Below are positions 43,976 to 53,886 of a stretch of 64,000 nt of DNA, piece by piece. Made by a program: the position numbers and the translations under genes. Position 1 is the stretch's first letter. The number at the start of each line of letters is the position of its first letter. Origin of the DNA: a phage; the sequence record PZ295659.1, one strand, 5' to 3'. A model generated the notes under the pieces. That model saw nothing but the letters and a program-made list of their open reading frames with translations. It searched no databases and was not told the DNA's origin.

Positions 43976-46063
43976 CTATCCTTGGACAAATTTAAACGGA
44001 ACTGATTCTAAATCCATTAAAGATGCTAACAATTTCAATCCTTTAGGAGCACTAGTTTTTTCTACAAATGAGGAGAACGATATCGGCTCATCTGATTCGA
44101 TTTCACCCGTCATAGCAACCACCTCACCTGTTTCCATGAGAACATCACCGTCGTAAATGACAGCTTCGTCCAACTGGTCTGAGGACATGACTTCAGCTTG
44201 AATAAATTTAAGGTTGGATTCTAAACCTGCACCAGTGTCAGATGACGCATCTGTAATTTTATTTATCTGCAAGAGAATGCCTCTAGGCAAAATAATTTCT
44301 TGCTCATTAGGGTGATTACTCAACTGTCCAGGATAAATCACGTTAACTTTATGGGCGCCATCAATAGCCCATCCAACGTTAACACGGATTTGGTCTGGTG
44401 CATGCATAGCTGTTCTTACTTGACTAGGAGAAATAGTAACACCTTCGTCATTATTGTCAATGTTAAGCTCTTTGCGAACTTCTTCAGGAGCAAGTCCAAG
44501 GGCAACGTTCTCTTTAAACCCACCGAAAATAATAGGAGCTAGTGAAGTGGAAACATAGTTTCTGAAGTAGAATACCTTATTTTTAACCATTGCTTCGTAA
44601 ATAGGCATTCTGATAGACTGAGCTCTATATAACGTTAGTCCTTCAGGTAAACGGTCTCCATTTAAAAACGCTGAATCAAGACCATCAATAGCGCGTTTAA
44701 CTTCATCTTCATCTGCAACATCGTAAAAATCTGGTTTATAACGACCTAACAGCATATTATTGATATCGGTATACGCAGAAGAGGCATATTCACGAATAGC
44801 TCGTTTTTCAGCAACAGAGTATTGATTAGGGACCCGATTCATTGTTATATTAAAGGTGCCTCTAGCCGATTCTCGTGCATAAGTATACATCACATTAGAC
44901 AAGAACGCTGATTTACGTTGTTTCCAAGTTTTTTCAGATACTTCAGCTAAAACGTCGTCAGCCAGTTGGAAATTATCACGTCTAAAATCTTCAAACCATT
45001 CGTCTTTAATAGAGTCGGCAATTTCATTTGCAGCTTCAACAAAAGCAGTTAATGCTTTAACAGATGTTGTTTTTTCAGTTTTAATTTTCTTAGCAAACTT
45101 TTCTAAAGTTGGCTTAATAACACTACCATAAGAAACTTCATCAGCAAATCTAAAGGATTCATCAATACGATTATAAATCTTATTTTCGATATCAGCAACT
45201 AAAGTGCCTTTTGCTGTGGACGATGCTTGGGCTAGTACGATTTCATATGCTTCAGGAAGTAATTCGGCTGTAGCTGGGCCACTAACTTCTTTAGCAGAAT
45301 TTTCGTATTTCTGGAATAACTCACCTTCTTGTCGGTCAGCTTCTAAAGATTGACTTGCTGCAATAGCACGACGAGAAATTTTAGTACGAGCAATAACAGG
45401 CTTATCTTTACGTTTTTCTTCTACAGCAGCAATAGAACCAGCGATAGCCGTTTCTTTGGTGACCTTTTCGCCAGTCTTTTTACTCACATAAACTTCGCCA
45501 ACATCAGAATCTACTTTCGTGTACAACTCTGTGTTAATGTTAGGGATGCCTTTAATATCTTCAATGTTGGCATTTTTACGAACCATCATCACATAGGTGT
45601 GTTTACCTGTGAATTGATACATTGCCGACAATACTTTAAAACGACCACCGGTTTTAGTAGAAACTAAACGAGCAAGAAGAGTTTGAAGCTGCTGTCCGCG
45701 TCCTTTCAATTTCTTGGTAGGGAATCGGAATAGAACTGCATCCATACGAAGAGCTTTAACCTGTTCATATACTGTATTGAAAATGGTGTTGATTGCATCA
45801 ATAGGAGCAGGACCAAGGCCATTTTTCAATTCAGCGAGATTGCCCTTTTCAGATAGACTCATAATAACAACATGAGCGTATTTGTCGCCAAGTTTAACTT
45901 GTTTTACAGCATCACCTTCGGAAAGGTAAGAGAATAAGCGAACTACGATGTTTGTATCGATATCACCAATTTTCCAGACTTGTGGAACTTTAGCTTTAGG
46001 GTTCAAATTGACGACAGGAAGACTGCCTTCAGATTCAAACACTTCATTTAATTGTTCAGACAT
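43976..46063 (-). CDS. alt: Alt mono-ADP-ribosyltransferase (virion-packaged)
   Basis: 695 aa; R-S-E ART signatures (LYRAQS, VSTSL, EQEIILP); conserved position between 54 and 30. Confidence 0.9.
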   Translation of the reverse strand: MSEQLNEVFESEGSLPVVNLNPKAKVPQVWKIGDIDTNIVVRLFSYLSEGDAVKQVKLGDKYAHVVIMSLSEKGNLAELKNGLGPAPIDAINTIFNTVYEQVKALRMDAVLFRFPTKKLKGRGQQLQTLLARLVSTKTGGRFKVLSAMYQFTGKHTYVMMVRKNANIEDIKGIPNINTELYTKVDSDVGEVYVSKKTGEKVTKETAIAGSIAAVEEKRKDKPVIARTKISRRAIAASQSLEADRQEGELFQKYENSAKEVSGPATAELLPEAYEIVLAQASSTAKGTLVADIENKIYNRIDESFRFADEVSYGSVIKPTLEKFAKKIKTEKTTSVKALTAFVEAANEIADSIKDEWFEDFRRDNFQLADDVLAEVSEKTWKQRKSAFLSNVMYTYARESARGTFNITMNRVPNQYSVAEKRAIREYASSAYTDINNMLLGRYKPDFYDVADEDEVKRAIDGLDSAFLNGDRLPEGLTLYRAQSIRMPIYEAMVKNKVFYFRNYVSTSLAPIIFGGFKENVALGLAPEEVRKELNIDNNDEGVTISPSQVRTAMHAPDQIRVNVGWAIDGAHKVNVIYPGQLSNHPNEQEIILPRGILLQINKITDASSDTGAGLESNLKFIQAEVMSSDQLDEAVIYDGDVLMETGEVVAMTGEIESDEPISFSSFVEKTSAPKGLKLLASLMDLESVPFKFVQG

Positions 46064-46103
46064 AGTGTTTTCCTTTTAGTAATAATTTATATTTATGCCA
46101 AAA

Positions 46104-46119
46104 AGAGCCCGAAGGCTCT
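46104..46119 (-). terminator. UUCG hairpin upstream of alt
   Basis: AGAGCC-UUCG-GGCUCU on minus transcript. Confidence 0.5.
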
Positions 46120-46307
46120 TAATCCACAATCGGGAGCAAAGTACGATAAACTTCAAAATTAGGGCCTTTTTCGTACCCATTAACGTTATCTACGAAAACC
46201 CGATACGAATTTTCATTAGGAAAATCTAATATAATCTGAGAGCAAGAGGTGGAAACATCTCCACCATCCTTCTTAGCTACAATAACTGTTTCTAAATAAG
46301 CTTTCAT
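46119..46307 (-). CDS. hypothetical protein (62 aa) translationally coupled to DNA ligase
   Basis: ATG overlaps ligase stop (TAATG); ends at hairpin. Confidence 0.5.
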   Translation of the reverse strand: MKAYLETVIVAKKDGGDVSTSCSQIILDFPNENSYRVFVDNVNGYEKGPNFEVYRTLLPIVD

Positions 46308-47800
46308 TATAAACCTGTCTGGGACCACGGTCCAAATACGTCTTCAAATGAATCCGCTTCTGTTTTATCAAAACGGAACCCTTTAATAATTGGAAGGAAA
46401 ATACCTACAGTGCCTTCACGGCCTTTAGAATGAACCCAACCATTACATTCACAATCAGCGATACGTCCGATTAATTTACCTTCACGAGCTTCGGTCATTA
46501 ATCGTTCACGGTCTAAATCATGACGCTCGTCTAAAGGAATAAGAACCTTTACACCGTCAACTGTTTTATGAGTTGTATCTTTAAACCCTGAACCACAATC
46601 GGTTGTAATACGACGACAACGTGATACGAGTTCGACACCACCTAATTTGTTAGGGTCTTTAGAATGTTCATAGTATCCTACAACTTCTAAAGCGATATCA
46701 ATAACTTCTTTAAATTTAATTAGGTTCTTAGAGCGTTTGTTTTCCCAATATGAATCACGGTTTTTAAGGATAATACCTTCAAGACCTTGGTCAACATATT
46801 TTTTATAAACCACTTTAGCTTCGTCAAGATTACGAACTAACTGATTTTCAATTGGCTCAATTCGCTTAAAGCCTTCAGCCATATTTTCAAGAGCAGCAAA
46901 ACGAACATCGTATTTCTGACCTTTAATTTTGCCATCAGAATAGACTTCATCTAAAGGAATATAGTCCCAGGCTTGAAGAACCATACCTTCCGCTTCTTTA
47001 GGAGAAATAGTCCCTTGAAGAGATTTATTTGCTAAACCATTTGAAGTGCTACGGTCTGCAACCTGTACTTCTTCGGATTCTTCATTATCACCAAATAAGA
47101 ACGACAGGTCATTTCCTGAGCTCACAGCCTTTTTAATATCGAATGAATGATAAACTAATTCACCGTCGATTAAAACCCCATTAGGGTGTCTTTCACGAGC
47201 TTCTTTAGTCATTTCCATTAGTTCATCAGCTAATAGAGTAAGACCGTGGTATTCGTTACCAGCACGAGAAAAGAATTGAACACCATCATCGCGAACTTCA
47301 GCGAAACAACGAGCACCATCTGCTTTTAATTGGGCAAATGCGGGCCATTTAATATTTTTAGTAATCAATTTCTCATCATATGCAGATGCTAACATCTGTG
47401 GTTGCAATTGAATAAGTCCAGGCCACACCTTATTCGCGATAGACACTGAAGCACCTACTTCAAGGTCGCGCATCATTACACGACGAAGGACTTCTACATC
47501 ATCAGGTTTACCGTCAGCGATATAACCCATGAGCTCTTTAATTGCAGCATTACCAGTGAGTTTACGAGTGGCTAATGTGAACTCAATAAAATCCAACATG
47601 TCATCTAATTCAAGAAGTCCATATGCTTGAGACCTTTCACCCGGTCCAGGCCATTTCTTAATATAATACTGGATACCACGTGCATATGTTAAACGATACA
47701 CACGTTCAAGTAATTTGTTGTCCTTATTTTTCTTAAGGATTTCTTGTTTTGTTTTAGTAGAACCGATCGCAGCTATTTGGTTTAAAATATCTAAAATCAT
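46307..47800 (-). CDS. 30: ATP-dependent DNA ligase gp30
   Basis: 497 aa; KADGAR adenylation motif; clear alignment to T4 DNA ligase N-terminus. Confidence 0.96.
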   Translation of the reverse strand: MILDILNQIAAIGSTKTKQEILKKNKDNKLLERVYRLTYARGIQYYIKKWPGPGERSQAYGLLELDDMLDFIEFTLATRKLTGNAAIKELMGYIADGKPDDVEVLRRVMMRDLEVGASVSIANKVWPGLIQLQPQMLASAYDEKLITKNIKWPAFAQLKADGARCFAEVRDDGVQFFSRAGNEYHGLTLLADELMEMTKEARERHPNGVLIDGELVYHSFDIKKAVSSGNDLSFLFGDNEESEEVQVADRSTSNGLANKSLQGTISPKEAEGMVLQAWDYIPLDEVYSDGKIKGQKYDVRFAALENMAEGFKRIEPIENQLVRNLDEAKVVYKKYVDQGLEGIILKNRDSYWENKRSKNLIKFKEVIDIALEVVGYYEHSKDPNKLGGVELVSRCRRITTDCGSGFKDTTHKTVDGVKVLIPLDERHDLDRERLMTEAREGKLIGRIADCECNGWVHSKGREGTVGIFLPIIKGFRFDKTEADSFEDVFGPWSQTGL

Positions 47801-48066
47801 TTGATGTCCTCGATTTTGGTTACGGTTCTATTATAAGCCACTTCATCTAGAAGCGATTTCAGCGTTTTCTGATAAGTGGTAACCCATTTACCAAGTCCTT
47901 CAACATAATATTCTGAAATGTAGATGAACCCTTGTTCAACACACTCTTTAAATATTTCTGCGTCTTTTACTGAACGAAACATTGGCCAGTCTCGAAAGAA
48001 CATGTTAACGTGACCGTAGTCACGCGTTGTGTTTTTGCCATCTGTAATATCATGAACTACAAACAT
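47797..48066 (-). CDS. hypothetical protein (30.1 position)
   Basis: 89-aa ORF coupled to ligase. Confidence 0.6.
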   Translation of the reverse strand: MFVVHDITDGKNTTRDYGHVNMFFRDWPMFRSVKDAEIFKECVEQGFIYISEYYVEGLGKWVTTYQKTLKSLLDEVAYNRTVTKIEDIK

Positions 48067-48075
48067 AATTAACCC

Positions 48076-48891
48076 TTAACAATTTGTAGACCAAGTCCAT
48101 TTGGACGAATCTAAAGGAAAGTTTTGAATCGTCCACCACGGCTGCATATCGGTTGGTCCTGGGGTTCGCCAGGTACATGGATTCGACGGACCGCCAATTT
48201 GATTAGGCCATGCGCCTGGACTTGTTGTACCAGATTCTTTAAGCAAATCAGCCAATCGTTTTAAAAGGTCTTCACGATCTGAATCTGAATTATGCTCGGG
48301 TGGAACCAAACGAGATTCAATATCATCCCACGTGTGTACACGTTGTGCAGTACGAGGAATGGCATCACGTTCACCACGAGCCAACCAATAAATCGGTACA
48401 TTAAGAATTTCTGCTGCATGGTCACAGTGATGAGCTAAATCGTCAACGTAACAAATCACGTTATATTTTGTTTTAGCTAGTTCGAATAATTGTTCCTTTG
48501 AAGAATCATGACCACACATCATTACTTCAGAGAAAGCGCCTGGGAACAAAGCATTCAAATTAAATTGTCTATTCAATCGAGCATCAATTGAATCACCTAG
48601 CGCCGTCACGGCTACAAAATTATAGTCTTCTTTTATTTTATTGATAACTCGAAGAGCATCCGAATAAGGCGCTAAGTAACGAATAAAATCAGAGCTATTA
48701 TATTTTTCTATTAATTGTTTACCGAGGTTATCGTCGGTATTGAATAGTTTACCAGGAGAAATAAATTTTTCGTCCTGAATCATTTTTAAAATATGTTCTA
48801 ACGGAAGATTATATTTTTGGGCAAAATAAGGAAGTCCAGATTGCCAACTTAAACATACACCATCAATATCGGTCAAAATAGTAGGCTTCAT
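48076..48891 (-). CDS. HAD-superfamily phosphatase-like protein (30.2 position)
   Basis: 271 aa; N-terminal DIDGV (DxDG[TV]) motif; Trp/Pro-rich C-terminal tail. Confidence 0.65.
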   Translation of the reverse strand: MKPTILTDIDGVCLSWQSGLPYFAQKYNLPLEHILKMIQDEKFISPGKLFNTDDNLGKQLIEKYNSSDFIRYLAPYSDALRVINKIKEDYNFVAVTALGDSIDARLNRQFNLNALFPGAFSEVMMCGHDSSKEQLFELAKTKYNVICYVDDLAHHCDHAAEILNVPIYWLARGERDAIPRTAQRVHTWDDIESRLVPPEHNSDSDREDLLKRLADLLKESGTTSPGAWPNQIGGPSNPCTWRTPGPTDMQPWWTIQNFPLDSSKWTWSTNC

Positions 48892-49340
48892 AAAGAGTCT
48901 CTTAATAGGTTTAACACATCAATAAATTCAGCTTCGGTTAGTATTGTATCATCTTTTGTTAGGTGGCTGGCCATGCTGTGCTTCAAAACTTTTCCTTTCG
49001 AGGCTTGTAATGCATCACGAAAGCCCCTGTTTTGGATCGCTGCTTCAAAATATGCATTTGTGTATAATTCTTTCCACGCCGGAGAGTATCTTGAAAACGG
49101 AACTCCAAGCCAGAAGAGGGTCCCACGGTCCTGAGCTCTAGCATAAGCTCGTCCAGCTTGTTGGGCGGCAAGCCCGGATAACCCAAATATACGTTTTTGT
49201 TGTTCAACATTTTTCACCTTACATCCTTGGAGAAATCCTTCAAGTCCTCCGAATTGAATACCATCCATAACAAAAGGCCATTGAGCAAAGTTACTTAATG
49301 CACATGACGGCCATGGAAAATTGCTTCTGATTTCAATCAT
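48888..49340 (-). CDS. NADAR / YbiA-like (DUF1768-type) protein, putative ADP-ribose-processing hydrolase (30.3 position)
   Basis: 150 aa; LSNFAQWPF..DG...GLEGFLQGCK resembles the YbiA/NADAR core. Confidence 0.6.
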   Translation of the reverse strand: MIEIRSNFPWPSCALSNFAQWPFVMDGIQFGGLEGFLQGCKVKNVEQQKRIFGLSGLAAQQAGRAYARAQDRGTLFWLGVPFSRYSPAWKELYTNAYFEAAIQNRGFRDALQASKGKVLKHSMASHLTKDDTILTEAEFIDVLNLLRDSL

Positions 49341-49531
49341 AGTCTTTTAAGGCTTTTGATAATTTCTAATTCAGAACTCATGCGAACGTCTTCAGTTCCA
49401 TCGACCCATAGGACGGTGTAGGCTTCTTTAATTTGAGTATTACCTAATTTAAAAGCAGGTAGAACCTTGGAAATCATTCCAGGAATACCTATACCTTTTA
49501 ACTGGACTGTTTGTGATAAGAATAGTTGCAT
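49337..49531 (-). CDS. hypothetical protein (64 aa)
   Basis: coupled ORF. Confidence 0.5.
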   Translation of the reverse strand: MQLFLSQTVQLKGIGIPGMISKVLPAFKLGNTQIKEAYTVLWVDGTEDVRMSSELEIIKSLKRL

Positions 49532-49818
49532 TAGAACCTCATCTGAAAGCCGTGCGATTTAACATTACCACCATAGATGTCAGAGGTATTGACTTCACGG
49601 GCGACACTTGGGTCGATATTGATGTCACAGTTGAGCTTAGTGATTGCCAGGGTATCACGTTCATTAACAGTACGGAATTCTACCGGGCATACAACATCAG
49701 CATAAGCCTTAATAGATTCACGAGTAGGTTGTTTGTCGGCAGGAACATCTTTACCAGCTTTAGAGAAAACAACTTCACAGAAATTTTTACGAGTATCAAA
49801 ATAAGTGGTCATAAACAT
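49531..49818 (-). CDS. hypothetical protein (95 aa)
   Basis: ORF after UUCG hairpin; coupled to downstream ORF. Confidence 0.55.
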   Translation of the reverse strand: MFMTTYFDTRKNFCEVVFSKAGKDVPADKQPTRESIKAYADVVCPVEFRTVNERDTLAITKLNCDINIDPSVAREVNTSDIYGGNVKSHGFQMRF

Positions 49819-49833
49819 AATATTTTCCTAAAA

Positions 49834-49849
49834 GGAGGCCGAAGCCTCC
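49834..49849 (-). terminator. UUCG hairpin
   Basis: GGAGGC-UUCG-GCCUCC on minus transcript. Confidence 0.55.
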
Positions 49850-49859
49850 ATTTTTAAGA

Positions 49860-50225
49860 TTAGATATCAAATTCGTTAAGAACTACATCAAAGATTGCTT
49901 CGAGATGTTCAGGTTTAGCTCGGTTGCTCAGGATGTGACGAATCCAAGTTTTAACCAGAAGTTTACGATTAACACCGTTCCAGCAAGGATGAGTACCTAA
50001 ATCACGTTGACGGAAATCGTCATCTAATGCAATTTTGAAGTTGGAACCTTCCATCGTGATTGAAACCGTGATGCCATTTTCAAATCGCATATAAACGTAA
50101 TTAGGAGTCATATACTGCTCAATTTCGCATACTGAACCGTTATTATGCTTCCATAAGCAAATTGTATCGATAGAACCAGCAATACCGTTAGAAACATATT
50201 TACGTTCGAAGTTGATGTAGTTCAT
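49860..50225 (-). CDS. hypothetical early protein (121 aa)
   Basis: early promoter + GGAGAATAAAATGAAC start context. Confidence 0.6.
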   Translation of the reverse strand: MNYINFERKYVSNGIAGSIDTICLWKHNNGSVCEIEQYMTPNYVYMRFENGITVSITMEGSNFKIALDDDFRQRDLGTHPCWNGVNRKLLVKTWIRHILSNRAKPEHLEAIFDVVLNEFDI

Positions 50226-50266
50226 TTTATTCTCCAGATGTTTAAGTTGTTTGTTGGTACAGGTCT

Positions 50267-50295
50267 ATAATAACAAAACCTGTACCAAAGTAAAC
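50267..50295 (-). promoter_or_regulatory. early promoter with inverted repeat (PeSL-like)
   Basis: GTTTAC-N17-TATTAT; IR TTGGTACAGG / CCTGTACCAA brackets the -10. Confidence 0.6.
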
Positions 50296-50299
50296 ATTT

Positions 50300-50671
50300 T
50301 TATTTGATTTTTGTCCACTTAGCTGAATCAATAACACCTTTTGCTTTAATCTTCTCGATTAATGACTCTGCACGATTTCTGGCATTTTCATACCATACAA
50401 CATCTTCAGAGTAACCTGTTTCTTCATCTTCGTAAGTTTTAGAACGAATACAACCATAAACTGTAGAATTCAGACGGTAAATTTCACCAGTGAAAAAGTT
50501 TTCGATTTCGATATGATAACAAAAATCGTCTGAAGGGCCATCAGGAGTTGTACAATAAACTACATCACCTTGAATCGAACGAACCATCCACTGTAACTCG
50601 TTAACAACTTGAGATTTATATCCATCGTGGTCACGGCATTTAATTGTAGCATTTAAATTGATAGTGTTCAT
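50300..50671 (-). CDS. hypothetical early protein (123 aa)
   Basis: early promoter + identical GGAGAATAAAATGAAC start context. Confidence 0.6.
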   Translation of the reverse strand: MNTINLNATIKCRDHDGYKSQVVNELQWMVRSIQGDVVYCTTPDGPSDDFCYHIEIENFFTGEIYRLNSTVYGCIRSKTYEDEETGYSEDVVWYENARNRAESLIEKIKAKGVIDSAKWTKIK

Positions 50672-50713
50672 TTTATTCTCCGGTTGTTTTTATTGATTAG
50701 GTGGTACAAGTCT

Positions 50714-50742
50714 ATAGTAACACATCCTACAGGAGAGTAAAC
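50714..50742 (-). promoter_or_regulatory. early promoter (GTTTAC-N17-TACTAT)
   Basis: motif. Confidence 0.6.
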
Positions 50743-50779
50743 ATCTTTTTTAAACTTTTTCTGCCCTAAACGCACAAAA

Positions 50780-50797
50780 GGGAGACCGAAGTCTCCC
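50780..50797 (-). terminator. UUCG hairpin GGGAGAC-UUCG-GUCUCCC (third identical copy)
   Basis: stem-loop plus U-tract. Confidence 0.65.
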
Positions 50798-50802
50798 TAA
50801 AA

Positions 50803-50982
50803 TTATGCAACAACCTTTCCAAAACGAGAAGCATCATCTCGAAGAACTGCACGTGCTCTGCGCATGATCTTCTCAACGGTTTGATTAATACGAGAGTTCG
50901 ACCCACGCTTGTATCCAGCGCGTTTAGAGGTACCATCAACTTTCTTTTCTACTGCTTTCTTTGCTTTAGCTTGTTTTGCCAT
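50803..50982 (-). CDS. small highly basic protein (59 aa)
   Basis: ATG ORF below track cutoff: MAKQAKAKKAVEKKVDGTSKRAGYKRGSNSRINQTVEKIMRRARAVLRDDASRFGKVVA; ends at terminator hairpin. Confidence 0.5.
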   Translation of the reverse strand: MAKQAKAKKAVEKKVDGTSKRAGYKRGSNSRINQTVEKIMRRARAVLRDDASRFGKVVA

Positions 50983-51251
50983 TATAAATTCTCTTTAAAT
51001 GAAAATGCAGGACTTATTGACATTGCCTGCCCAAGCCCTCAAGGGGAACATAGGTTTTTGGATATTTAACGACAGGATAACCATAAACCCGTCATCATAC
51101 CGACCACGACTTAGACAGATAACCTTTTTCTGACGCGTGATAGTACAAAATACATTCAAGAGGTACACCGTAAAATTGTCGGGGCGGTACTTCTAAAACA
51201 TATCGATTCGCAAATCGATAATCAGACAATTCGACGGCTCCTCGATTTAAC

Positions 51252-51500
51252 TTACTTCAGGGTAATAACAAAATGACGAACTGCTTTACGTGCTGCAGAA
51301 GCCAGAGGCTTAGCATATTTCAATTCATCTTTCTGAACCAGGATATCGCGAAGATCGGCTTGTGCTGGATTCAGATGTTTGAAATACTGTAAGATTTCAA
51401 GAGCTTCGGCTTCAACATCAATAGATGCGCCGTAATTGTCATGGCCATTATTCCATGCATGGCGTTGCAGTTCAAGAGCGTGTTGTAATTGTTTAATCAT
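51252..51500 (-). CDS. rIII: RIII lysis-inhibition accessory protein
   Basis: 82 aa, same as T4 rIII; late promoter upstream. Confidence 0.88.
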   Translation of the reverse strand: MIKQLQHALELQRHAWNNGHDNYGASIDVEAEALEILQYFKHLNPAQADLRDILVQKDELKYAKPLASAARKAVRHFVITLK

Positions 51501-51616
51501 TTTAAATTCTCAATTCGAGATAATACTTAGTAGCCACGTTCTTCTGAATTTCACTTTCTTTCGACAAGTCTCTCAGTTGTAGGCTACCGCTTAGAAGAGT
51601 GTTCTCTTCATATAGT

Positions 51617-51624
51617 TATTTATA
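51617..51624 (-). promoter_or_regulatory. late promoter TATAAATA (rIII)
   Basis: minus-strand TATAAATAACTATAT. Confidence 0.6.
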
Positions 51625-51957
51625 TCACTTATAAAGACATGGAATAGCTTTATAGTGGCATGTTACGAATTTCTGTTTAATTTCTTTAGGTTGTTTAAGA
51701 CCTAAAGCCACAAATGGATGTGGAACATTTCGAATTTGTCCAACCGGTAGTGGAGTCAAATCACCGACTTCAACAAAACCTTCAGGAACATCAGGACCTA
51801 CAGAATGAACTACACATAGTTCAGGAACTTCACCTTGAACACGTTTACCAATCACAAGTCCTGATTCTGTAACTTCTTCATCACCCGCTTGAGCGGGTTC
51901 AGAAACCAGAATGACATATTCACCAACAGCACGAATTGGGAGTTGTACTTCAGACAT
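51625..51957 (-). CDS. 31: gp31 co-chaperonin (GroES analogue for capsid folding)
   Basis: 110 aa, essentially identical to remembered T4 gp31. Confidence 0.95.
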
Positions 51958-52323: not shown

Positions 52324-52894
52324 AAAAGTTTCGGATTTGTTCCCAATTCAGAGAACGAAGATTATTACGAGAGTACTGAATTACTTCAATACCGGCTTGT
52401 TTTAGAATGTCTGCCCAATTTTCAGGAGATCTGTCATATAATTCTGCGTATACAACCTTTTTAATACCTGACTGCGTAATAGCTTTAGTGCAATCAGGAC
52501 ATGGAGAAAGCGTCGTATATAACGTAGCACCTTCAATAGAATTACCTTTACGAGCTGCAAACAAAATTGCATTCAATTCTGCATGGATTTCATTATTAGC
52601 AGACCATGCACTATGAGCGGCCCGATGTTCTTTAGCCAAAACAAAATTATCTGCCCGTCCAAATGCTGTAGTGCCTTCTTTATGTCCAGCAACGATGACC
52701 GGGCTTGGTTTATTCTTCAACCAACCGTTTTCGGATGCATGTTCGCAACAGTTTGTACCACCTGAAGGAGAGCCATTATAACCTGTAGAAATAATGCGTC
52801 CATCTTTTTCAATGACTGCGCCAACTTTCCATGAACAACATTTTGATTCTTGAGAAATCAGATATGCAATCTGAAGGTATGTGCTAGCTTTCAT
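52313..52894 (-). CDS. cd: dCMP deaminase
   Basis: 193 aa; zinc motifs HAELNA and PCPDC. Confidence 0.93.
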   Translation of the reverse strand: MKASTYLQIAYLISQESKCCSWKVGAVIEKDGRIISTGYNGSPSGGTNCCEHASENGWLKNKPSPVIVAGHKEGTTAFGRADNFVLAKEHRAAHSAWSANNEIHAELNAILFAARKGNSIEGATLYTTLSPCPDCTKAITQSGIKKVVYAELYDRSPENWADILKQAGIEVIQYSRNNLRSLNWEQIRNFCGE

Positions 52895-53886
52895 TATTGA
52901 ACCTTATTAATATAAGTTAACAGCTCTTTAGTTTGTTCCCAACTGATGCACGCATCGGTAATGGAAACGCCATAGGACATATTATCAGAAATTTTTTGAT
53001 TTCCTTCATGTAGGAATGATTCTATCATAATTCCTTTGACCAAATCATTAGCTGCTAAATTTTTACCAATACCAATTTGATTGCTATAATGCCCATCAGC
53101 GTTTGCATGGCTACAGTCAACCATTACATAATGATTCAGACCTACTGCACTTGCTTTGTTAGAAGCTTCTTGAATATCAGAAGAATGATAGTTCGGGCCG
53201 TTGGTCCCGCCACGCAATACGATATGCGTATTCTGATTACCTTCAGCTTCAACAATGCCTATAGTACCATCGACGTCCATACCCATATACCGATGAGGCC
53301 AGGCGGCACTATACATCGCGTCTGTAGCTACTTTAATAGAACCATTGGTTGCGTTCTTGAAGCCTACGCACATCGGTAGACCTGAAGCAATTTCACGATG
53401 TGTCTGACTTTCAGTCGTACGGGCGCCAATAGCAACCCATGAGAAAATACCAGAAAGATACTTAATCGTGAATGGGTCTAATACTTCAGTTGCTAATGGA
53501 AGTCCCATACGTAGAAGTTTACGACACAATGTTCGTGCAACTATAAGACCGTGGTTCATATCAAAACTTCCGTCAAGATATGGATCATTTACAAGACCTT
53601 TCCAACCTACGGTAGTTCGAGGCTTTTCAAAATAAACGCGCATCACTAACAGAACATTAGGAAGACGAGTTTGAAGTTCAGCCAGACGTTTGCCGTATTC
53701 AACAGCAGCAATAGGGTCATGAATTGAACAAGGACCTACAACAATAAGTTTGCGTGGGTCTTCACCGTTCATAATCGAATTAACTTGTTCGCGATGAGAA
53801 GCCACTTGTGATGCGTAAGCTTCCGACAAAGGAATAATCTCAGCCAGTTCTTTTGGAGAAATAAGTTTTCTGACGATAGGTAACAT
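52894..53886 (-). CDS. 3-deoxy-D-arabino-heptulosonate-7-phosphate (DAHP) synthase, class I (AroG/AroF-like)
   Basis: 330 aa with near full-length similarity to bacterial AroG: VVGPCSIHDP, MRVYFEKPRTTVGWKGL, IGARTTESQTHRE, VGFKN, LRGG, SHAN, HEGNQ, SITDACI. Confidence 0.85.
   Translation of the reverse strand: MLPIVRKLISPKELAEIIPLSEAYASQVASHREQVNSIMNGEDPRKLIVVGPCSIHDPIAAVEYGKRLAELQTRLPNVLLVMRVYFEKPRTTVGWKGLVNDPYLDGSFDMNHGLIVARTLCRKLLRMGLPLATEVLDPFTIKYLSGIFSWVAIGARTTESQTHREIASGLPMCVGFKNATNGSIKVATDAMYSAAWPHRYMGMDVDGTIGIVEAEGNQNTHIVLRGGTNGPNYHSSDIQEASNKASAVGLNHYVMVDCSHANADGHYSNQIGIGKNLAANDLVKGIMIESFLHEGNQKISDNMSYGVSITDACISWEQTKELLTYINKVQ

What the first reader, a model, noticed from the sequence alone, without database searches (positions are those of the whole stretch)
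48076..49340. NADAR/YbiA-like plus HAD-phosphatase gene pair next to the Alt ADP-ribosyltransferase and ligase
ORF 48888..49340 carries an LSNFAQWPF..DG...GLEGFLQGCK core that resembles the NADAR (DUF1768, E. coli YbiA) fold; NADAR enzymes have been reported as ADP-ribosyl hydrolases acting on ADP-ribosylated guanine. It is coupled to a 271-aa HAD-type protein (DIDGV motif) with an unusual Trp/Pro-rich tail. Both sit about 2 kb from alt. This could be an ADP-ribose/nucleotide-processing pair, possibly counteracting host DNA-ADP-ribosylating defence toxins or balancing phage ARTs.
Basis: partly seen in the sequence, partly recalled or inferred. Interest (0 to 1): 0.5.

Follow-up and report, generated by a model that had tools for sequence, protein, structure and literature searches.

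The report
T4 AdfN NADAR plus uncharacterised phosphatase
The two genes are T4 genes 30.3 and 30.2: 30.3 is AdfN, an enzyme already shown to strip ADP-ribose off phage DNA and defeat the bacterial DarTG1 defence, and 30.2 is an unstudied nucleotidase-like phosphatase that keeps company with the DNA ligase gene rather than with 30.3.

Summary
The window is a T4-like coliphage (Tequatrovirus).

**ORF 48888..49340(-)** is gene 30.3.
- It matches Pfam PF08010 at E 1e-69 and is 94-95% identical to T4 gp30.3, full length.
- The predicted fold matches the three solved NADAR structures and nothing else.
- T4 gp30.3 is AdfN, shown by experiment to be a guanine-ADP-ribose DNA glycohydrolase that defeats DarTG1 (PMC11825919, PMC11125620). 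Its nearness to phage ADP-ribosyltransferases was noted in 2022 (PMC9503650). This half is correct but already published.

**ORF 48076..48891(-)** is gene 30.2.
- It is a real HAD phosphatase. All four catalytic motifs are conserved across 53 homologues (motif II in at least 90%), and it has a C1 helical cap.
- It is a divergent branch of the NT5C 5'(3')-deoxyribonucleotidase family.
- The Trp/Pro-rich tail is disordered, hypervariable, and absent from about a third of homologues.

**The pair is not a conserved module.**
- The ATGA overlap is one of several in a chain of tightly packed genes.
- 30.2 abuts the ligase gene in about 70 of 78 loci, while 30.3 is within 4 kb in only 38.
- In phage PG7 the two genes lie 58 kb apart.

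One open lead remains: AdfN needs an unidentified T-even factor. gp30.2 is an untested, low-prior candidate.

The parts
48888..49340 (-). Gene 30.3 = adfN (anti-DarT factor NADAR), 150 aa, full length including the C-terminal helix (residues 136-149)
   Evidence: PF08010 E 1.2e-69. 94-95% identical to T4 NP_049816 with no C-terminal truncation. AF2 model pLDDT 83. Foldseek top three are YbiA 2b3w, NADAR 8bat and 8bau.
49239..49241 (-). Codon for Glu34, equivalent to catalytic E36 of T4 AdfN
   Evidence: Alignment with T4. Invariant in 25 homologues down to 35% identity. E36A abolishes activity in vitro (PMC11825919).
49218..49220 (-). Codon for Lys41, equivalent to K43 of T4 AdfN
   Evidence: Lys, Arg or (in one sequence) His at this column in the wider family. 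K43A gives only partial rescue (PMC11825919).
48978..48980 (-). Codon for His121, the phage-clade replacement of the last-strand Glu/Asp of other NADARs
   Evidence: Invariant in 25 homologues. It follows the last strand (119-120) of the model. Described as the phage NADAR signature in PMC11125620.
48292..48891 (-). Gene 30.2, residues 1-200: HAD phosphatase core with a C1 helical cap (cap about residues 16-86), NT5C-like
48856..48870 (-). HAD motif I, D8-I-D10-G-V12 (nucleophile Asp8, acid/base Asp10)
   Evidence: D8, D10 and G11 are invariant in 53 homologues. D/D is invariant in 84 more distant relatives.
48604..48606 (-). HAD motif II, Thr96
   Evidence: At least 90% conserved in 53 homologues and in the distant set. 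It sits at the end of strand 91-96.
48496..48498 (-). HAD motif III, Lys132
   Evidence: Invariant.
48439..48444 (-). HAD motif IV, Asp150-Asp151
   Evidence: Invariant in 53 homologues. It sits at the end of strand 145-150.
48229..48285 (-). Gene 30.2, residues 203-221: linker helix between core and tail
   Evidence: DSSP helix 203-221 in the model.
48079..48228 (-). Gene 30.2, residues 222-271: Trp/Pro-rich tail, predicted disordered; only the short TWRTPG motif is shared with T4
   Evidence: pLDDT below 50 over most of 232-271. 28% W+P. 24% identity to the T4 tail against 85% for the core. 34 of 98 homologue clusters have a tail shorter than 20 aa.
48888..48891 (-). ATGA overlap of the 30.3 stop and the 30.2 start
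   Evidence: The same -4 overlap occurs at 30.5/30.3 and 30.1/ligase, and a -1 overlap at 30.6/30.5.

Best explanation
These are two neighbouring early genes of a T4-like coliphage. They sit next to each other through inherited gene order, not because they work as a unit. Gene 30.3 encodes AdfN, a small NADAR-fold N-glycosidase. When the host DarT1 toxin ADP-ribosylates guanines in replicating phage DNA, AdfN hydrolyses the guanine-ADP-ribose bond, restores the base and lets replication proceed. The copy here is intact (catalytic Glu34, Lys41, His121 and the C-terminal helix), so this phage should resist DarTG1. This step is shown for T4 and inferred here from 94-95% identity. Gene 30.2 encodes a C1-capped HAD phosphatase of the NT5C (5'(3')-deoxyribonucleotidase) lineage. 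Asp8 is the predicted phospho-acceptor, Asp10 the acid/base, and Thr96, Lys132 and Asp150/151 complete the Mg2+/phosphate site. The closed helical cap and its many invariant aromatic residues point to a small nucleotide substrate, most likely a (deoxy)nucleoside monophosphate. Its steady partner in genomes is the DNA ligase gene within the replication and nucleotide-metabolism block. I therefore infer a role in the nucleotide pool or DNA metabolism that does not depend on AdfN. The substrate and the role of the disordered Trp/Pro-rich tail are unknown.
Confidence: 0.8

Rival explanations
1. One reading: 30.3 and 30.2 form a dedicated ADP-ribose/nucleotide-processing pair. The NADAR releases ADP-ribose and the HAD phosphatase processes it or a derived phospho-sugar or nucleotide. 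Together they counter DNA-ADP-ribosylating toxins or balance the phage's own ARTs.
For: ATGA translational coupling. Direct adjacency in Tequatrovirus, Mosigvirus-type and some other loci. Both genes are widespread in the same phage groups. They lie 2 kb from alt.
Against: The same coupling is seen between unrelated neighbours. In Acinetobacter and Aeromonas phage loci other genes or short gaps separate the two. Adjacency is absent in 39 of 78 loci and in PG7, where the genes are 58 kb apart. AdfN alone removes ADP-ribose from DNA in vitro, and ectopic AdfN alone restores RB69 plaquing (PMC11825919). HAD phosphatases do not cleave the pyrophosphate of ADP-ribose. Alt modifies proteins and RNA, not guanine in DNA (T4 record annotation).
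Confidence: 0.07
2. gp30.2 is the unidentified T-even-specific factor that AdfN needs for full activity. For example, its disordered aromatic tail could stabilise or localise AdfN at replicating phage DNA, with or without catalysis.
For: PMC11825919 (sections 10, 12) reports that AdfN-T4 cannot rescue DarT1 toxicity in uninfected cells and only weakly rescues T5 and Bas25, and proposes an unknown T-even factor. 30.2 is the translationally coupled downstream gene. It is present in T4 and in the Mosigvirus-type loci that include RB69-like phages. It carries a fast-evolving disordered tail typical of interaction modules.
Against: Any of roughly 200 genes shared by T-even phages fits the same genetics. 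Adjacency is not conserved. The tail is missing in a third of homologue clusters, including phages that keep 30.3 next door, such as the JS10 type with 30.2 of about 196-212 aa.
Confidence: 0.07
3. gp30.2 is a DNA-end 3'-phosphatase (PNKP/Tpp1-like HAD) that prepares nicks for the adjacent DNA ligase.
For: Very stable 30.2-(30.1)-ligase adjacency in about 70 of 78 loci. A 25%-identical HAD sits about 600 bp upstream of an ATP-dependent ligase in an unrelated 43-kb viral contig, L076. It has a DxDG motif I, as in PNKP-type phosphatases (the PNKP motif is recalled from memory, not tested here).
Against: The model has a roughly 70-residue C1 helical cap between motifs I and II, which in HADs usually closes over small substrates, whereas DNA 3'-phosphatases are capless (established HAD classification; recalled, not tested here). 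T4 carries PseT, annotated with this 3'-phosphatase activity. The nearest families by profile and fold are nucleotidases, not PNKP.
Confidence: 0.06

Closest known systems
AdfN (T4 gp30.3), anti-DarT factor NADAR; Pfam PF08010 Phage_30_3
   Same: 94-95% identical over the full length and in the same genomic position. Same catalytic Glu, Lys and phage-type His, same intact C-terminal helix, same predicted NADAR fold.
   Different: Two residues shorter at the N-terminus and seven substitutions. None affects a residue that is invariant in the family.
DarG1 / NADAR antitoxins and E. coli YbiA (PDB 8bat, 8bau, 2b3w; Pfam PF08719)
   Same: Same fold (Foldseek TM 0.46-0.61) and the same LSNF...EGxxQxxK active-site motif.
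   Different: 15-18% identity and no PF08719 hit at E <= 1. It lacks the N-terminal extension of DarG1, has His instead of Asp/Glu in the last strand, and the T4 protein cannot replace DarG1 in uninfected cells (PMC11825919, PMC11125620).
5'(3')-deoxyribonucleotidases cdN/mdN and bacterial homologue 3bwv (Pfam PF06941 NT5C)
   Same: For gp30.2: HAD core plus C1 helical cap, and a DxDGV motif I followed by an aromatic residue and SGL (alignment). Best Foldseek hits. Distant relatives of gp30.2 pass the NT5C threshold.
   Different: 14-18% identity, and the window protein itself is below the NT5C and HAD thresholds. It has family-specific invariant motifs (WQSGLPYF, YNxSDFIRYL, LNRxFNLNxLFPGAF) and, in two thirds of members, a disordered aromatic/proline-rich tail of 40-150 aa. 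Substrate unknown.
T4 PseT / PNKP-type HAD 3'-phosphatase
   Same: HAD DxDG phosphatase encoded in the same phage genome region, and linked in function to ligation.
   Different: By recall, PseT's phosphatase is capless and acts on polynucleotide ends; this was not tested here. gp30.2 has a C1 cap and groups with nucleotidases.

Membership tests
NADAR superfamily (YbiA fold) | [quoted passage not shown] | tested here: met
   AF2 model has pLDDT 83 and pTM 0.81, with two hairpins (23-30, 74-83) and core helices. The only Foldseek PDB hits with probability >= 0.95 are 2b3w, 8bat and 8bau.
NADAR superfamily (YbiA fold) | [quoted passage not shown] | tested here: met
   E34 and K41 align to T4 E36 and K43. 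E34 and H121 are invariant in 25 homologues. His is the phage-clade variant (PMC11125620).
NADAR superfamily (YbiA fold) | Match to Pfam PF08719 (NADAR/DUF1768) | tested here: not met
   Only PF08010 is reported at E <= 1. The family profile hits YbiA only at E 0.055. This is sequence divergence, not evidence against the fold.
AdfN (anti-DarT factor NADAR, T4 gp30.3 clade, PF08010) | PF08010 match above threshold and orthology with T4 30.3 | tested here: met
   232.9 bits against a cut-off of 36. 94-95% identity. Same gene order 30.5-30.3-30.2-30.1-30.
AdfN (anti-DarT factor NADAR, T4 gp30.3 clade, PF08010) | Intact C-terminal helix (lost in the inactive RB69 allele) | tested here: met
   The alignment runs to the last residue ...LNLLRDSL, and helix 136-149 is in the model.
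AdfN (anti-DarT factor NADAR, T4 gp30.3 clade, PF08010) | Hydrolysis of guanine-ADP-ribose on DNA and protection from DarTG1 | not testable with these tools
   Shown for T4 AdfN (PMC11825919; PMC11125620). Inferred here from identity.
HAD superfamily phosphatases | Four catalytic motifs: DxD, T/S, K, DD | tested here: met
   D8, D10, K132 and D150/D151 are invariant, and T96 is at least 90% conserved, in 53 homologues. The same holds in 84 distant relatives.
HAD superfamily phosphatases | Rossmannoid core fold | tested here: met
HAD superfamily phosphatases | Curated Pfam HAD model above the gathering score | tested here: not met
   HAD_2 scores 14.1 bits against 23.8. Family members give only sub-threshold hits to PF00702, PF13419 and PF06941.
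NT5C 5'(3')-deoxyribonucleotidase family (PF06941) | Sequence membership in PF06941 | tested here: inconclusive
   The window protein gives no hit. 9 of 53 close homologues give weak hits. Relatives found by the 30.2 profile at E about 1e-17 to 1e-19 pass the threshold (34.6 and 29 bits), and 27 of 84 hit at E <= 1e-3. hhalign between the two sets gives E 5e-55. This makes it a divergent sister group or subfamily by transitive evidence.
NT5C 5'(3')-deoxyribonucleotidase family (PF06941) | C1 helical cap inserted after motif I | tested here: met
   Helices at 16-26, 32-40, 46-49, 54-65, 68-72 and 77-86 lie between strands 4-7 and 91-96.
NT5C 5'(3')-deoxyribonucleotidase family (PF06941) | Dephosphorylation of (deoxy)nucleoside 5'/3'-monophosphates | not testable with these tools
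   No assay found in the literature.

The most novel reading that the evidence does not exclude
gp30.2 is the missing T-even-specific potentiator of AdfN, or is otherwise required for counter-defence against nucleic-acid ADP-ribosylation. Its hypervariable Trp/Pro-rich tail would tether AdfN or the phosphatase to the phage replication machinery. That would explain why AdfN works only in T-even infections.
Probability: 0.07. Interest if true: 0.6.

Novelty: already known. Interest (0 to 1): 0.2.

Why it matters
The main value here is a clear filing. The NADAR gene that drew attention is AdfN, a published anti-DarTG1 counter-defence enzyme. The copy in this window is intact, which predicts a DarTG1-resistant phage. 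The remaining interest lies in gp30.2. It is found in more than 1,400 sequenced phage genomes and has a conserved catalytic site, yet nobody appears to have studied it. It is a nucleotidase-like enzyme in a phage that otherwise hoards nucleotides, it stays next to the ligase gene, and it carries a fast-evolving disordered tail. Finding its substrate would fill one of about 100 functional gaps in the T4 genome. It would also test cheaply whether gp30.2 is the unknown factor AdfN depends on.

Tried and rejected
1. Direct Pfam and NCBIfam assignment of both proteins to NADAR or HAD models. For 30.3 only PF08010 was found. For 30.2 only sub-threshold HAD_2 was found, and NCBIfam gave nothing.
2. 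Sequence and profile searches against the PDB. For the 30.3 profile YbiA is on top but at E 0.055. For 30.2 nothing is significant.
3. afdb50 fold search: the library was unavailable.
5. Fusion partners of distant 30.2 relatives (P0176, P0219, P0122, P0167): the extra regions have no Pfam match and the contexts are uninformative, except L084, which repeats the T4-like order.
6. Literature searches for gp30.2, HAD phosphatases in Tevenvirinae, and phage deoxyribonucleotidases found nothing on this gene.
7. Promoter and terminator scan of 46000-51700: counts equal the shuffled expectation, so no transcription-unit boundary can be called.
8. I checked whether the odd tail arises from a frameshift of the T4-type tail. 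Neither alternative frame contains the GIEYL..NRPT motif. It is instead a distinct allele, found at 95% identity or more in about 146 phage records.

Full report
**What the window is.** The 1.9-kb region is 95-97% identical at the DNA level to many Escherichia Tequatrovirus genomes. Its gene order matches T4: alt, alt.1, 30 (ligase), 30.1, 30.2, 30.3, 30.5, 30.6, 30.7, 30.8, 30.9, rIII, 31. All of these genes are on the minus strand.

**Checking the observation.**
- Both ORFs are present exactly as described.
- The 150-aa ORF 48888..49340 contains ALSNFAQWPFVMDGIQFGGLEGFLQGCK.
- The 271-aa ORF 48076..48891 begins MKPTILTDIDGV.
- Its last 50 residues are 28% Trp+Pro, against 6.5% in the core.
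- The two ORFs overlap by ATGA.
- alt (PF03496) begins 2,013 bp beyond the end of the 271-aa ORF, with the ligase gene in between.

**Gene 30.3 is AdfN.** The 150-aa protein scores 232.9 bits on Pfam PF08010 'Bacteriophage protein GP30.3'. It is 94-95% identical to T4 gp30.3 over its whole length.

I tested the NADAR reading independently:
- A profile of 25 homologues, down to 35% identity, has E. coli YbiA as its best PDB sequence hit.
- An AlphaFold2 model (pLDDT 83) gives exactly three credible Foldseek hits in the PDB: YbiA 2b3w (E 3.8e-4, TM 0.61), Geobacter lovleyi NADAR 8bat, and Phytophthora NADAR with ADP-ribose 8bau.
- Glu34 and Lys41 correspond to T4 E36 and K43.
- His121, just after the last strand, is invariant. 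It is the phage-clade substitute for the Glu/Asp of other NADARs (PMC11125620).

**The function is already published.**
- Johannesman et al. (PMC11825919) mapped DarTG1 resistance of T-even phages to gene 30.3 and renamed it adfN.
- They showed that the purified protein removes ADP-ribose from DarT1-modified DNA, and that E36A is inactive in vitro. In plaque assays E36A, K43A and an RB69-type C-terminal truncation gave only partial rescue.
- Toxins 2024 (PMC11125620) showed guanine-specific de-ADP-ribosylation by T4 gp30.3 in vitro.
- Iyer et al. 2022 (PMC9503650) had already noted that NADAR genes of T4-like phages are early genes near the ARTs.
- The copy here keeps the C-terminal helix that RB69 lacks, so it should be active.

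**Gene 30.2 is a real but divergent HAD phosphatase.**
- The 271-aa protein is the orthologue of T4 gp30.2: core residues 1-195 are 85% identical and the tail 24%.
- Curated models barely see it. HAD_2 gives 14.1 bits against a cut-off of 23.8, and NCBIfam gives nothing.
- In 53 homologues down to about 38% identity, the invariant residues include D8, D10 and G11 (motif I), K132 (motif III) and D150-D151 (motif IV). T96 (motif II) is at least 90% conserved.
- The second Asp of motif I marks a phosphotransferase rather than a dehalogenase (established HAD biochemistry; recalled, not tested here).
- The AlphaFold2 model is confident over residues 1-222. It shows a Rossmannoid core with a helical C1 cap of about 70 residues between motifs I and II.
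- Foldseek ranks the cytosolic and mitochondrial 5'(3')-deoxyribonucleotidases and the staphylococcal homologue 3bwv first, at E 4e-8 to 3e-7.

**Placing the 30.2 family.** I searched 1.84 billion representative proteins with the family profile.
- The search found 1062 relatives at E <= 1e-3 and 414 at E <= 1e-10. Most are proteins of 190-215 aa without a tail.
- Of 84 distant relatives, 27 match Pfam NT5C (PF06941) at E <= 1e-3. Some are above the curated cut-off: P0230 at 34.6 bits and P0263 at 29 bits.
- The two alignments match each other at probability 100% and E 5e-55.
- Two viral relatives at 25% identity score 24.0-24.3 bits on NT5C, just under the 24.8 cut-off.

gp30.2 is therefore a divergent branch of the NT5C-like nucleotidases. 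The cap, with many invariant aromatic residues (W16, Y22, F23, F43, F50, Y64, F69, Y72, Y76), suggests a nucleotide-sized substrate. That last step is inference.

**The tail.**
- After a helix at residues 203-221, the last 50 residues or so are predicted disordered, with pLDDT below 50.
- Across 98 homologue clusters, 34 have fewer than 20 residues beyond the core. The rest carry 40-150 residues rich in W, P, Y and F, with several unrelated short motifs: TWRTPG, GTGIEYLNRQPT, PESYRN..DLRAYY.
- The window allele keeps TWRTPG but lacks the GIEYL..NRPT motif of T4. This is not a frameshift artefact. The allele is common, with about 146 phage records at 95% identity or more.
- Compared with T4, identity falls from 94% (30.3) and 85% (30.2 core) to 24% (tail), 56% (30.1) and 65% (ligase). 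A mosaic breakpoint therefore lies inside 30.2.
- What the tail does is unexplained.

**Is it a gene pair?**
- The ATGA overlap is not specific to this junction. The junctions 30.6/30.5 (-1), 30.5/30.3 (-4), 30.3/30.2 (-4) and 30.1/ligase (-4) are all overlapping.
- In 78 viral-contig loci that encode a 30.2 relative, the ligase gene follows directly, or after 30.1, in about 70.
- A 30.3 homologue lies within 4 kb upstream in only 38 of the 78. It directly abuts 30.2 in only about 14, mainly Tequatrovirus and Mosigvirus-type loci; in Acinetobacter and Aeromonas phage loci short gaps or other genes separate the two.
- In Karamvirus PG7, 30.3 sits among tRNA genes at 72.8 kb while 30.2 is at 131 kb.
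- In L084, four genes separate them while 30.2 still abuts the ligase.
- A distant NT5C-like relative in an unrelated 43-kb viral contig also lies about 600 bp from an ATP-dependent ligase.
- Both genes are near-universal in the same phage groups, at 1511 and 1442 records with near-equal counts per host genus. That is expected of any two near-core T4-like genes.
- On the chemistry, NADAR hydrolysis yields free ADP-ribose and an intact base, and AdfN alone suffices in vitro and when expressed ectopically for RB69 (PMC11825919). No phosphatase step is required.

**The one open lead.** PMC11825919 reports that AdfN-T4 does not rescue DarT1 toxicity in uninfected cells and barely helps T5 or Bas25. 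The authors infer an unknown T-even factor. gp30.2 is a candidate because it is the coupled downstream gene and has an interaction-type tail. However, roughly 200 other shared genes fit the same genetics, the adjacency is not conserved, and tail-less alleles sit next to intact 30.3 genes. I give it about 7%.

**Verdict.** The central element is already known. The HAD partner is an uncharacterised member of a known enzyme family.

Noticed in passing
window 52894..53886 (-): A 330-aa class I DAHP synthase (PF00793, E 5.5e-75), the first enzyme of aromatic amino-acid synthesis. It sits directly downstream of dCMP deaminase, where T4 has cd.1/cd.2. Copies at 95% identity or more are in 140 phage records, annotated variously as aroF or hypothetical.
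   Followed up: partly
window 48983..49210 (-), inside gene 30.3: The 75-aa alternative-frame ORF that the T4 record annotates as 30.3' is kept here. The +1 frame stays open for 76 codons in all but one of the 30.3 genes at 84% identity or more (61 codons in L010), and for a variable length (22-91 codons) in those at 36-46% identity. Whether it is translated is unknown.
   Followed up: partly
window 49337..49531 (-): Only one small ORF lies between 30.3 and 30.6. It matches T4 30.5 (65%) and not 30.4 (22%), so T4 gene 30.4 is absent. This accounts for the roughly 220-bp indel seen against many relatives.
   Followed up: yes
database homologues of window 48888..49340: Many natural 30.3/adfN alleles are truncated or fused (83-126 aa, for example P0102-P0105, P0111 and P0113 from phage UGJNEcP4). 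This suggests the kind of decay that made RB69 DarTG1-sensitive recurs.
   Followed up: no
window 48076..48300 vs T4 (L001 3475..3700): There is a mosaic breakpoint inside 30.2. Identity to T4 drops from 85% (core) to 24% (tail) and stays low through 30.1 (56%) and ligase (65%), while 30.3 and 30.7 are 94-98% identical.
   Followed up: partly
L076 3977..6288 (IMGVR_UViG_3300022074_000105): In an unrelated 43-kb viral contig, an NT5C-like HAD (25% identical to gp30.2) lies about 600 bp upstream of a 372-aa ATP-dependent DNA ligase. The nucleotidase-ligase neighbourhood may therefore recur outside T4-like phages (one lineage only).
   Followed up: partly
window 46119..46328 (-): A 69-aa GTG-start ORF sits in the position of T4 alt.1 and overlaps the end of the ligase gene by 22 nt. 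Its identity with alt.1 was not checked.
   Followed up: no
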